The notes beneath the pieces are model-generated. The model was not told the origin of the DNA. It was given only the letters and a program-made list of their open reading frames with translations, and did not search any database. Of a stretch of 64,000 bases of DNA, positions 37,930 through 41,890 are shown piece after piece. Numbering within the stretch: the stretch's first letter is position 1; each line of letters opens with the position of its first letter. The position numbers were made by a program, and so were the translations under genes. Origin of the DNA: a virus (Duplodnaviria > Caudoviricetes); IMG/VR virus record IMGVR_UViG_3300031414_000005; one strand, 5' to 3'.

Positions 37930-38007
37930 TGTAAGCGCCGGTGGGTTGACTCTATCTGATTGTATGAATTAACCCACCACTTTTCTAACTGAATAGGACG
38001 TAATGTA

Positions 38008-38181
38008 ATGAGCAACAAACCTGCTGATAATCTGGACGGTGAAATGAATTTCGATTCACTGGACGAACTGAACTTCGAAGCGGCTGCCGAGCGCAACGAC
38101 GCAAAGATTGATGAACTGGATGCAGAAGCTGCGGCTATCCCGGTCGACAACGGTTGTGGAGCCGGCGGTTGCATTATCTAA
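38008..38181 (+). CDS. 57-aa acidic protein with an NrdA-like C-terminal CxxxxC tail (not in the ORF track)
   Basis: AGGA RBS; MSNKPADNLDGEMNFDSLDELNFEAAAERNDAKIDELDAEAAAIPVDNGCGAGGCII*; fills the gap between genes. Confidence 0.75.
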   Translation: MSNKPADNLDGEMNFDSLDELNFEAAAERNDAKIDELDAEAAAIPVDNGCGAGGCII

Positions 38182-38198
38182 TTTCCAAAGGGTAGAAC

Positions 38199-38591
38199 AT
38201 GACCGAGCTCACAACTGACGAGCATTTCACACAGTTATACACCGATGCAGAAGTGTTGTTAGCCGCTAAAGCTGCGCACTGTGCGGTGCAGGCCATCAAC
38301 GAAGCATTTGGGTTATACAAGCTCCCCCAGTGGATGCTGTGTAACGATTGGTATAAGGCCTCGTTTACCCGCAATGTGGAAGCTTACCTGTACCACGCGT
38401 ATCCGGTACGTAAAGTGCATGCGCATTGGGTCAGGCGGATGGAAAGTCAGGGATGGGTAGTTGGTGAAACTCGTTGCCGTGAGCAGAAGACCCACCCGAT
38501 GTTAGTTTCTTTTAATGATTTACCGATAGAAGAAAAACTTAAACTGAAACAGATGCGGGCGGTGGTCATGGCGTTCCGTAAAACGAACTGA
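38199..38591 (+). CDS. RyR (ryanodine-receptor repeat) domain protein
   Basis: H..W.......GWVVGE.R....KTHP.LV.F.DLP..EK matches the RyR domain pattern. Confidence 0.8.
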   Translation: MTELTTDEHFTQLYTDAEVLLAAKAAHCAVQAINEAFGLYKLPQWMLCNDWYKASFTRNVEAYLYHAYPVRKVHAHWVRRMESQGWVVGETRCREQKTHPMLVSFNDLPIEEKLKLKQMRAVVMAFRKTN

Positions 38592-38632
38592 CCCAAGCGG
38601 GGGTTGTGCCCCCGCCTACCGAGGACTTTGCC

Positions 38633-40591: not shown

Positions 40592-41890
40592 TTAATAGAA
40601 CACGCTGTCCAGTTTGTACTCCCGCACCTTCAGGGATGACACGTGCATTTTCTTCATGCGCAGCAGCATCCACTTGGTTCCCATTTTCACTACCCCGGCT
40701 GACATCCCCACCTTGTTCTGGGCGTTGTGCGCACCGGCACAATACTGACAGATATCGGTGAAACCGTGGTTGCAAAAGTCAGGACTGCGAATCATTACCC
40801 GCTGCCCAATCAAGCTGGCTTTGTTGTCAGACGTGATGAGGTGAGTCTGTTTCTTGGCGTCGAAGTAATAGCTGCTGATGAACCGGTCGATGTTGTCGTC
40901 GGTCAGGGTTTCCCAGAAGCCTACTTCGGTACCGCAGTCTTCGTCCAGGATCTGTACGTTCTGGGTGATACGGATCAACTCTTTTACAGCAGCCCCGCCT
41001 TCCGCTGTTGACTTACCACGGTCATAAGAACCATCGATCGCGGAGTTGGCCAGCGGTGGCAAGTCTTTGGGGTCCCACCCTTCCAGCAGGGAGTTCTTGA
41101 CCACCCGGCCTTCACCGGCACTGTTGAAGTCGGGTTCCAGGCCAAAGGAGATAAACATCTTCTTACGGGCAGTTGAGAAGAATTTCTCAGAGATAAAGAA
41201 GTCTTCGGCCACATCCCCTTTGAAGTCGGCTTTGTCCATCGCCACCAATTCATCCTGGATCTTGGCCATGGTCACCGGGTCGTTGAGCTGCTCTTTGTGT
41301 TCCTCAAACAACTCGTCGCGGCGTTTGATGATCGCCGGGTTGATCGTCAACGCTTTACGTGATGTCGTGGGTACACAGAGCGCCGTTAAGCCACCCAGGA
41401 AGTACCCGTTCTTCACTGACTGCAACATCTCAGTGGGTGTAAAGAAACCTTTCTCCGTGCGTCTGGCGTCGTCATCCGTGGGCAGACATCCTTTCTTGTA
41501 TACTCCTTTCAGTAACCCACCGCTGAAGGTCTGGTTGTAAAACCCAATCCGACCTTTAAACGGATCAATGAAGGACAGGTAGTTCCAGATCACAATCCCG
41601 ACATGGGTGTCAATCGGGCTGAGTACCGTGATAACGTCATCCGGGGTAACATGGATCGGGTCTTTGAATCGGAGTAATGGCTGGTCGGTGGACGTACCCT
41701 CAGCCACACGTACCGCCAACCCGTCTTCCAGGTAAAAGAACCCGTCCTTATCTTTGCGCAACAGATAGGGAATGTCCTCAGTGACGCCGGTGCTTTCAGA
41801 GATCGAGAACACCGAGATAAACCACTCTTTGCGGGTGTATGCTTCCGCTTTCATGGCTTTCAGGAAATACTGCTGTGCTGTTAACATCAC
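40592..41890 (-). CDS. rpoC: Virion RNA polymerase beta' subunit, C-terminal piece (phiKZ gp80-like)
   Basis: S..GSYDRG.STA.GG; EDCGT; RSP.FC...C.YC; C-terminal MK.MH. Confidence 0.85.
   Translation of the reverse strand: MMLTAQQYFLKAMKAEAYTRKEWFISVFSISESTGVTEDIPYLLRKDKDGFFYLEDGLAVRVAEGTSTDQPLLRFKDPIHVTPDDVITVLSPIDTHVGIVIWNYLSFIDPFKGRIGFYNQTFSGGLLKGVYKKGCLPTDDDARRTEKGFFTPTEMLQSVKNGYFLGGLTALCVPTTSRKALTINPAIIKRRDELFEEHKEQLNDPVTMAKIQDELVAMDKADFKGDVAEDFFISEKFFSTARKKMFISFGLEPDFNSAGEGRVVKNSLLEGWDPKDLPPLANSAIDGSYDRGKSTAEGGAAVKELIRITQNVQILDEDCGTEVGFWETLTDDNIDRFISSYYFDAKKQTHLITSDNKASLIGQRVMIRSPDFCNHGFTDICQYCAGAHNAQNKVGMSAGVVKMGTKWMLLRMKKMHVSSLKVREYKLDSVFY

What the first reader, a model, noticed from the sequence alone, without database searches (positions are those of the whole stretch)
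38008..38181. Unannotated 57-aa acidic protein that looks like a free-standing ribonucleotide-reductase redox tail
Seen: an ORF below the track cutoff with an AGGA RBS. It has about 15 D/E residues and ends VDNGCGAGGCII-COOH. Known: E. coli NrdA ends ...DDGCESGACKI; this CxxxxC pair on a flexible acidic tail carries electrons from thioredoxin/glutaredoxin to the active site. Inference: the peptide could act in trans as an RNR re-reduction shuttle, complement a tail-less phage NrdA, or act as a decoy that captures host Trx/Grx or redirects dNTP synthesis.
Basis: partly seen in the sequence, partly recalled or inferred. Interest (0 to 1): 0.78.

Follow-up and report, generated by a model that had tools for sequence, protein, structure and literature searches.

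The report
Phage peptide mimicking ribonucleotide-reductase tails
A jumbo phage that has no ribonucleotide reductase of its own encodes a conserved 57-residue acidic protein whose end nearly copies the flexible two-cysteine tail that recharges the host's DNA-precursor enzyme; it belongs to a widespread, unstudied phage family that probably plugs into that host enzyme.

Summary
The ORF at 38008-38181 is real and is under strong purifying selection (dN/dS about 0.06; the last 16 codons have only synonymous changes). I found 24 distinct homologues. They occur in jumbo phages, in Chaseviridae coliphages (the phiEcoM-GJ1 group), in N4-like G7C and on metagenomic contigs. All end in C-x3/4-C-x-Ile-COOH, the geometry of the NrdA redox tail of Enterobacterales (...DDGCESGACKI).

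One member, Erwinia phage pEa_SNUABM_7 gp040, ends ...EVVEASDECEGGACKI, almost identical to NrdA tails. A profile that includes it finds the end of nrdA as the best hit in four whole host-type genomes.

All seven complete carrier genomes lack an RNR large subunit. The two tested for NrdB, NrdD, Trx and Grx lack those as well. This refutes the "tail-less phage NrdA" idea; any target must be a host protein.

Some sub-lineages start with a heptapeptide that matches the NrdB C-terminal alpha-binding motif. A co-fold docks the peptide on NrdA (ipSAE 0.67, best control 0.02) at what I map as the beta-tail groove.

Best reading: a docking, trans-acting redox tail aimed at host class Ia RNR. Whether it boosts or inhibits the enzyme is unresolved. 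No paper describing it was found. This scan noted the same family earlier on other DNA.

The parts
37940..37978 (+). Conserved stem-loop (GGTGGGTTGA...TTAACCCACC), followed by ACTTTTCT. It lies between the upstream 114-aa gene and the peptide gene and looks like a terminator or regulatory element.
   Evidence: -17.2 kcal/mol, z = -3.3, 0 of 200 shuffles fold as well; stem and loop are conserved in L001 and L002, with changes that keep pairing. The consensus terminator scan did not call it because the loop is too long.
37995..37998 (+). Shine-Dalgarno AGGA, 9 nt upstream of the start codon.
   Evidence: ATAGGAC is conserved in all three close relatives.
38008..38181 (+). Gene for the 57-aa acidic protein (P0001), stop codon included.
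   Evidence: (dN/dS 0.06).
38044..38076 (+). Residues 13-23 (MNFDSLDELNF): acidic-hydrophobic N-terminal motif. It corresponds to the N-termini of the shorter homologues.
   Evidence: Alignments. In the co-fold model these residues contact NrdA 347-350, 394-397 and 710-716. In other sub-lineages this motif matches the NrdB tail consensus (p about 1e-4 to 4e-3), but it does not do so significantly in this protein.
38074..38136 (+). Residues 23-43: the single predicted amphipathic helix.
   Evidence: AlphaFold2 helix 23-43, block pLDDT 75-80; contacts with i/i+3-4 periodicity to NrdA 314-328 and 394-404.
38137..38178 (+). Residues 44-57 (IPVDNGCGAGGCII): flexible tail with Cys50 (38155-38157) and Cys55 (38170-38172). 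This is the NrdA-tail mimic.
   Evidence: The last 16 residues are invariant in the three close homologues. C, G, C and I are invariant across 19 aligned members. Block pLDDT is 49-54 with no regular structure. Comparison with NrdA tails.

Best explanation
The ORF encodes a small, mostly disordered acidic phage protein built from two short mimicry elements joined by a helix.

Shown: it is a real, selected gene. It belongs to a family present in several unrelated groups of phages that infect Enterobacterales. Its conserved C-terminus has the sequence pattern and exact end geometry of the NrdA (class Ia RNR alpha) redox tail. The phage encodes thymidylate synthase but no RNR, thioredoxin or glutaredoxin.

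Modelled: the N-terminal motif plus the helix dock on host NrdA at the groove that normally holds the C-terminal tail of the beta subunit.

Inferred: docking tethers the flexible dithiol tail near the catalytic site. There it can exchange with the C225/C462 disulfide formed at each turnover and is then re-reduced by host Trx/Grx. The protein would thus act as a docking, trans-acting electron shuttle that lets RNR-less phages raise or sustain host dNDP output. The direction of the effect (boost or block) is the least certain step.
For: 1. Gene reality. dN/dS is 0.06, the tail has 0 non-synonymous against 6-7 synonymous changes, and indels are in frame.

2. Family. There are 24 distinct sequences with invariant C...C-x-I-COOH.

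3. Tail likeness.
- NrdA tails in the 80 closest E. coli-like NrdA loci in Enterobacterales genomes read DD[GD]C[EA][SG]GACKI.
- A wider sample gives C[EAD][SGD][GD][AG]CKI, including CAGGGCKI.
- gp040 of Erwinia phage pEa_SNUABM_7 ends EVVEASDECEGGACKI, against Photorhabdus/Providencia NrdA EVVESADSDCEGGACKI. Its last 24 nt match Pantoea nrdA at 23 of 24.
- Family profile A3, searched in six frames of the E. coli K-12, Erwinia, Pantoea and Photorhabdus genomes, gives the last codons of nrdA as the top hit in all four (E 0.02-0.96 per genome).
- The PSSM gives p = 6e-9.
- The 950-aa NrdA type found in other Gammaproteobacteria ends ...CSIDDPDCEACQ and scores -16.5 bits.

4. No RNR large subunit in 7 of 7 complete carrier genomes. 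No NrdB, NrdD, Grx or Trx in the two genomes tested. ThyA is present in this genome. ThyA or dCMP deaminase lies 2-4 genes away in SA91KD, Faunus and pEa_SNUABM_7.

5. Beta-tail likeness. An 8-mer PSSM from 25 distinct NrdB tails (consensus DD[LF]x[DN]F[EQD]L) scores P0016 at 16.4 bits, P0022 at 14.7 and P0019 at 11.9. By composition-preserving shuffles, p = 1e-4 to 4e-3.

6. Co-fold of Pantoea NrdA 1-737 with P0001. The score is 0.67 against a best control of 0.02. That mark was reached by 58 of 80 solved complexes and 2 of 110 mismatched pairs; these counts hold only roughly because my own alignments were used. The runs agree in at least 69% of contacts, and partner pLDDT is at least 60. The interface is NrdA 314-328, 347-350, 394-404 and 710-723 with peptide residues 13-42. 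These three segments correspond, by conserved-residue numbering recalled from memory, to the yeast R1 site that binds the R2 C-terminal peptide (V342, E343, Q386, W389, L393, M721-F729; PMC3483043). Complexes of NrdA with the NrdB tail are solved, so this pass may reflect likeness to them.

7. In E. coli the last ~24 alpha residues with C754/C759 are disordered, and beta 360-375 binds alpha (PMC4728125). Such tails re-reduce the active site by disulfide exchange (PMC9531940).

8. AlphaFold2 gives one helix (23-43) flanked by low-confidence ends.
Against: - No experiment exists, and there is no expression evidence for this ORF.
- The profile built without gp040 (A4) does not find NrdA. The statistical bridge to NrdA therefore runs through one sub-lineage plus a short motif.
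- In this protein the tail is CGAGGCII. It lacks the Lys that is invariant in the NrdA tails read here (KI in 22 full-length sequences; 1 of ~70 ends KL).
- The NrdB-like motif is not significant in P0001 or in the P0007-type members (p 0.17-0.78). It sits at the N-terminus, whereas the real beta tail ends in a free carboxylate.
- The co-fold did not place the Cys tail, used an alignment that contains the NrdB-like members, and may work from memory of solved alpha/beta-tail complexes.
- Occupying the beta groove would by itself inhibit the enzyme.
- NrdA already has its own tail in cis, so the gain from a trans tail is not obvious.
- Absence of RNR in carriers is weak evidence, because most phages lack RNR.
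- A later check of this scan's earlier report on a family member put its bold reading at 12/100.
Confidence: 0.38

Rival explanations
1. Inhibitor of host RNR. The peptide occupies the beta-tail groove of NrdA and blocks alpha-beta pairing. Its Cys pair also competes with, or forms a disulfide with, the active-site or native-tail cysteines. The result would be to shut down host dNTP synthesis, for example to stop host replication or to starve competing phages.
For: The co-fold interface lies at the beta-tail site. Some sub-lineages carry an NrdB-like heptapeptide. C-terminal R2 peptides are classical competitive RNR inhibitors (PMC3483043). From my own knowledge, all known small disordered RNR regulators (Sml1, Spd1, Dif1, Hug1) are inhibitors.
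Against: Carriers have ThyA or dCMP deaminase but no RNR, so they appear to depend on host RNR flux; blocking it would starve the phage. The most conserved part is the complete two-Cys tail with native spacing, which a pure groove blocker would not need. The beta-like motif is weak in many members, including this one.
Confidence: 0.24
2. Decoy or sink for thioredoxin/glutaredoxin that does not need NrdA docking. The tail would act as a pseudo-substrate that captures or diverts host Trx/Grx, altering the cell's thiol redox budget or recruiting a redoxin for another phage process.
For: The tail keeps the features of the natural Trx/Grx substrate: an acidic context and C-x3/4-C two residues from the C-terminus. 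The two carrier genomes tested encode no redoxin.
Against: A dithiol peptide needs an oxidant to cycle, and the only specific one known is the RNR active site. The conserved N-terminal motif and helix, and the modelled NrdA interface, would be left unexplained. No co-fold with Trx or Grx could be run.
Confidence: 0.1
3. The likeness to RNR tails is coincidental. The family could be something else: an acidic DNA-mimic or anti-defence protein whose terminal cysteines dimerise or bind metal, or a RiPP precursor (acidic leader plus Gly/Cys core). The D-x-G-C-G-x-G-G stretch also resembles SAM-methyltransferase motif I.
For: The only PDB sequence hit was methyltransferase motif I, at E = 1.8. The profile without gp040 does not reach NrdA. 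Strongly acidic small phage proteins are often DNA mimics (my own knowledge). The acidic leader with Gly-Cys core looks RiPP-like.
Against: No conserved neighbouring gene appears in eight different contexts. The genome has no radical-SAM or YcaO enzyme. The protein ends 6 residues after the 'motif I', so no Rossmann fold can follow. The end geometry, the gp040/NrdA near-identity, the NrdB-like N-termini and the co-fold all point to RNR.
Confidence: 0.15

Closest known systems
C-terminal redox tail of class Ia RNR alpha (E. coli NrdA residues ~737-761, Cys754/Cys759)
   Same: An acidic, Gly-rich, disordered segment with two Cys spaced x4 (x3 in some members), the second Cys two residues from an Ile C-terminus. 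Some phage members are near-identical over 16 residues.
   Different: It is free-standing, on a 42-58-aa protein (one 163-aa fusion), in phages with no RNR catalytic subunit. The Lys before the last Ile, invariant in the NrdA tails read here, is often I, V, T or A.
C-terminal alpha-binding tail of NrdB (E. coli beta 360-375) and the synthetic R2 C-terminal peptide inhibitors (E. coli 20-mer, mouse AcFTLDADF; herpesvirus nonapeptide from my own knowledge)
   Same: Some family members begin with D-L-D-N-F-E-L, D-L-D-N-F-D-I or E-L-D-D-F-D-I, against the NrdB consensus D-[LF]-x-[DN]-F-[EQD]-L. The co-fold docks the peptide at the corresponding groove.
   Different: The motif is N-terminal or internal, not at a free C-terminus. 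It is degenerate in this window's protein. It is encoded naturally by a phage and is joined to a redox tail.
Small disordered RNR regulators of eukaryotes (Sml1, Spd1, Dif1, Hug1). From my own knowledge, Sml1 competes with the R1 C-terminal CX2C domain.
   Same: A small, intrinsically disordered protein aimed at the large subunit and at the tail-dependent regeneration step.
   Different: There is no sequence relation. Those proteins carry no redox cysteine pair. They are cellular, not viral, and are known inhibitors.
Autonomous 'spare-part' modules of radical enzymes (E. coli GrcA/YfiD, phage T4 Y06I)
   Same: The functional C-terminal piece of a large enzyme is encoded as a separate small protein, also by phages, and acts in trans on the host enzyme.
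   Different: Those modules replace a glycyl-radical domain of pyruvate formate-lyase. Here the piece is a thiol tail of class Ia RNR, and the carrier phage lacks the enzyme body.

Membership tests
NrdA (class Ia RNR alpha) C-terminal redox tail | Two cysteines spaced C-x4-C, the second two residues from the C-terminus, ending in Ile/Leu | tested here: met
   Cys50 and Cys55 of 57, ending C-I-I. NrdA reads C754-x4-C759-K-I761. The family keeps C-x3/4-C-x-I in all members.
NrdA (class Ia RNR alpha) C-terminal redox tail | Sequence pattern of the tail (DD[GD]C[EA][SG]G[AG]CKI) above chance | tested here: inconclusive
   PSSM p = 6e-9, and profile A3 has nrdA's end as top hit in 4 of 4 genomes. 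Profile A4, without gp040, finds nothing. Lys760 is not kept in this protein.
NrdA (class Ia RNR alpha) C-terminal redox tail | Covalently attached to the RNR catalytic barrel | tested here: not met
   The protein is a 57-aa stand-alone gene. The complete genome has no PF02867 hit.
NrdA (class Ia RNR alpha) C-terminal redox tail | Shuttles electrons from Trx/Grx to the active-site disulfide | not testable with these tools
   Needs enzymology.
NrdB C-terminal alpha-binding tail | Heptapeptide D-[LF]-x-[DN]-F-[EQD]-[LI] | tested here: not met
   P0001 scores -1.5 bits, p = 0.53. The feature is met in relatives P0016/17, P0019-21 and P0022 (p 1e-4 to 4e-3).
NrdB C-terminal alpha-binding tail | Located at the extreme C-terminus with a free carboxylate | tested here: not met
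   The motif is at or near the N-terminus in every member.
NrdB C-terminal alpha-binding tail | Binds the groove on alpha that holds beta 360-375 | tested here: inconclusive
   The co-fold scores 0.67 against a best control of 0.02, with interface 347-350, 394-404 and 710-723. Mapping to the groove goes through yeast residues in PMC3483043 and numbering recalled from memory. This is a model, not a measurement.
RiPP precursor peptide | A modifying enzyme (YcaO, radical SAM, LanB/C/M...) encoded nearby and co-conserved | tested here: not met
   No shared neighbour across contexts. The genome has no PF04055 or PF02624 hit.
Class I SAM methyltransferase (motif I, VLDxGCGxG) | Motif I followed by the rest of the Rossmann fold | tested here: not met
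   The protein ends 6 residues after the motif. There is no Pfam hit, and the only PDB match has E = 1.8.

The most novel reading that the evidence does not exclude
The family is a natural 'two-tail chimera'. A beta-subunit-like docking motif and an alpha-subunit-like dithiol tail sit on one 40-60-residue peptide. It binds the host NrdA beta-tail groove after each turnover and re-reduces the active site in trans. Phages that carry no RNR (N4-like, phiEcoM-GJ1-like, several jumbo groups) would use it to overclock the host's rate-limiting re-reduction step and secure dNTPs. This would be a new class of viral metabolic effector and the first natural peptide ligand of the RNR subunit interface.
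Probability: 0.27. Interest if true: 0.9.

Novelty: new variant of a known kind. Interest (0 to 1): 0.76.

Why it matters
RNR is the only de novo source of DNA precursors and a classical drug target. How the many lytic phages without an RNR secure dNTPs is poorly understood.

A phage-encoded peptide that copies the enzyme's own regulatory and redox tails would be a new kind of host take-over factor. It would be a ready-made natural ligand for the alpha-beta interface and for the regeneration step of bacterial class Ia RNR. It would also give a direct test of whether the redox tail can work in trans.

The family occurs in tractable coliphages (G7C, phiEcoM-GJ1 and its relatives). The E. coli enzyme is the best-studied RNR, so the question can be tested immediately.

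Tried and rejected
- tblastn of P0001 against phages gave only E >= 0.2, though Faunus and pSb-1 later proved plausible members. tblastn of P0008 gave nothing.
- The 'longer' protein search for fused forms found none at E <= 10.
- phmmer of the whole protein and of residues 34-57 against PDB sequences gave no NrdA or tail-peptide hit, only methyltransferase motif I at E = 1.8.
- P0001 alone against the E. coli K-12 genome produced no candidates.
- The search for related loci in viral contigs found none confirmed.
- Profile A4, without gp040, against four genomes gave no NrdA hit.
- The NrdB-tail PSSM on P0001 and the P0007-type members was not significant.
- Conserved neighbour or partner gene: none.
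- PHROGs gives only 'unknown function' families (phrog_10239 and others) for gp040 and SA002. There is nothing for P0001, and Pfam gives nothing.
- Expression: the first run search listed no RNA holder. In the second, one metatranscriptome contig and one possible RNA contig cover only 38174-38368 and 38405-38600, not the ORF. This gives no evidence either way.
- The sigma-70 and terminator scan showed nothing on the + strand near the gene.
- The co-fold did not place residues 43-57, so it says nothing about the Cys tail reaching the active site.
- Strict host-matching of tails is not seen. E. coli phages have CSSGACAI and CTSGGCTI, Erwinia phages have CEGGACKI, CDGGGCII and CGDACKI, while both hosts have CESGACKI.
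- Four literature searches found no description of such a phage protein.

Full report
**The observation**

The window's + strand carries an ATG ORF at 38008..38181 encoding 57 residues. AGGA lies 9 nt upstream. The product has 14 D/E against 3 K/R and ends ...IPVDNGCGAGGCII.

I read the E. coli K-12 nrdA 3' end from the genome. NrdA ends ...VPSIQDDGCESGACKI. Both sequences therefore have C-x4-C-x-I at the very C-terminus, preceded by D-[DN]-G.

**The genome**

The window is part of a complete 232,948-bp virus record with direct terminal repeats. A split RNA-polymerase beta' gene at 40592-41890 (-) is 39% identical to those of Erwinia jumbo phages. The DNA occurs in phyllosphere, soil and viral-metagenome runs. 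The host is not known.

The genome has no hit to the RNR large subunit, RNR small subunit, NrdD, glutaredoxin or thioredoxin families. It does encode a thymidylate synthase.

**Is it a gene?**

- Two close homologues (86% and 79% identity) lie at the same place on related contigs. They keep the reading frame through 9- and 12-nt indels, and their last 16 residues are identical.
- dN/dS is 0.06. The last 16 codons carry 6-7 synonymous and no non-synonymous differences.
- A 98.5%-identical contig from another run differs within the tail only at three third-codon positions.
- The RBS and an upstream stem-loop are conserved.
- AlphaFold2 predicts one helix (23-43) with low-confidence, irregular ends.

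**The family**

An exhaustive profile search and a word-indexed profile search found more distant members of 42-50 residues. tblastn then found it in cultured phages:

- Erwinia jumbo phages pEa_SNUABM_7 (gp040) and pEa_SNUABM_54 (gp212);
- Salmonella jumbo phage SA002, where it is the C-terminus of a 163-aa protein;
- Chaseviridae: the Carltongylesvirus coliphages and Yersinia phages, including phiEcoM-GJ1, and Erwinia phage Faunus;
- an unannotated ORF of the N4-like coliphage G7C.

All 24 distinct sequences share three parts: an acidic-hydrophobic N-terminal motif, a charged helix, and a tail [DNS]-[NDE]-x-C-x(3,4)-C-x-I-COOH. C, G, C and I are invariant in the 19-member alignment.

Neighbouring genes differ in every context. 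The genome has no radical-SAM or YcaO enzyme, so a RiPP precursor is unlikely. Pfam has no model. PHROGs has only 'unknown function' families.

**Likeness to the NrdA tail**

- In the 80 closest E. coli-like NrdA loci in Enterobacterales genomes the tail is DD[GD]C[EA][SG]GACKI.
- A broader sample of the GTDB order adds CAGGACKI, CADGACKI and CAGGGCKI.
- The 950-residue NrdA type of other Gammaproteobacteria ends ...CSIDDPDCEACQ, which is quite different.
- gp040 ends EVVEASDECEGGACKI, against EVVESADSDCEGGACKI in Photorhabdus/Providencia NrdA. Its last 24 nt match Pantoea nrdA at 23 of 24 positions.
- The 19-member profile, searched in six frames of four whole genomes, gave the final codons of nrdA as the top hit in each, with per-genome E of 0.02-0.96.

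Without gp040 the profile no longer reaches NrdA. It does recover gp040 at E = 0.025. The sequence bridge is therefore real but thin.

A C-terminus-anchored PSSM from six other lineages scores NrdA tails at 21-27 bits. That is p about 1e-8 to 4e-10, or fewer than 1e-4 expected among a host proteome's C-termini. A DNA pattern for the motif found essentially only nrdA in 301 genomes.

**A second likeness**

NrdB tails of the same hosts end DD[LF]x[DN]F[EQD]L. Several peptides begin MDLDNFEL, MDLDNFDI or NELDDFDI. Against composition-preserving shuffles these score p = 1e-4 to 4e-3. The window's own protein (MNFDSLDELNFE) and the P0007-type members do not reach significance.

**Co-fold**

I co-folded Pantoea NrdA 1-737 (22-row alignment) with P0001 (18-row alignment).

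- The score was 0.67 against a best control of 0.02.
- That mark was reached by 58 of 80 solved complexes and 2 of 110 mismatched pairs. The counts hold only roughly, because my own alignments were used.
- The runs agree in at least 69% of contacts, and partner pLDDT is at least 60.
- Peptide residues 13-42 contact NrdA 314-328, 347-350, 394-404 and 710-723. The Cys tail was not placed.

The yeast R1 site for the R2 C-terminal peptide comprises V342, E343, Q386, W389, L393 and M721-F729 (PMC3483043). Using offsets from conserved catalytic residues, recalled from memory, these map onto the same three E. coli segments. I therefore read the modelled site as the beta-tail groove.

Alpha/beta-tail complexes have been solved. 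The pass may therefore show likeness to them rather than prove that this protein binds.

**Mechanism**

In E. coli RNR the last ~24 alpha residues with C754/C759 are disordered, and beta 360-375 binds alpha (PMC4728125). The tail cysteines re-reduce the active site by disulfide exchange (PMC9531940).

The peptide combines a conserved, complete dithiol tail with a docking element for NrdA. It sits in phages that have ThyA or dCMP deaminase but no RNR. Such phages appear to depend on host RNR flux.

I therefore favour a docking, trans-acting redox tail that supports host RNR regeneration (0.38). The alternatives are a groove-blocking inhibitor (0.24), a Trx/Grx decoy (0.10) and an unrelated function (0.15). 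The sign of the effect cannot be settled by sequence.

**Novelty**

Four full-text searches found no description of such a phage protein.

This scan has reported the same family on other DNA (e1-128314, e1-136077, e1-261423, e1-5368559). It has also reported naturally detached RNR tails in some bacteria (e1-5245331, e1-2745091). Those are unchecked AI notes and I use them only as leads. One of them was later rated 90/100 for the observation and 12/100 for its bold reading, which tempers my confidence.

As far as I can tell, the NrdB-like N-terminal motif and the modelled NrdA interface are new here.

Noticed in passing
window 38199-38591 (+): The gene directly downstream is a stand-alone 130-aa RyR-domain protein (PF02026, E = 2.4e-8). 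It is present in relative L001 but missing in L002, where the peptide gene is followed directly by the 172-aa gene.
   Followed up: partly
window 37940-37990 (+): A conserved stem-loop with a strongly conserved 20-nt loop (TCTATCTGATTGTATG...) lies upstream of the peptide gene in all three close relatives. It could be a terminator or a phage promoter/regulatory element.
   Followed up: partly
L183 2501-2638 (+) (Escherichia phage G7C, HQ259105.1 35689-35826); also phiEcoM-GJ1, PO103-1, Bp7: Family members are unannotated in several GenBank phage records ('none' under the match). The G7C ORF has a GAGG RBS and ends NNDCTSGGCTI.
   Followed up: partly
L181 2123-2614 (+) (Salmonella phage SA002 gp95): Here the module is the last ~50 residues of a 163-aa protein with an unrecognised 113-aa N-terminal part. 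No RBS precedes the internal GTG, so this is probably a true fusion.
   Followed up: partly
L100-L127 (NrdA of other Gammaproteobacteria): The ~950-aa NrdA type ends in a three-cysteine tail, ...AC-S-I-D-D-P-D-C-E-A-C-Q. This differs from the Enterobacterales C-x4-C-K-I tail. No phage peptide of that type was looked for.
   Followed up: no
L093 6001-6132 (+): In a small Prim-Pol phage contig the peptide gene sits immediately upstream of the small and large terminase genes. The family is therefore not tied to one genome module.
   Followed up: no
window 38003-38010 (+): A minimal ATG-TAA start-stop overlaps the peptide's start codon (ATGTAATG). It is not conserved in L001.
   Followed up: no
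P0006 (1423 aa): A long protein matched the acidic middle of the profile in 7 stretches (E = 8e-7). This is probably a low-complexity acidic repeat and not a relative.
   Followed up: no
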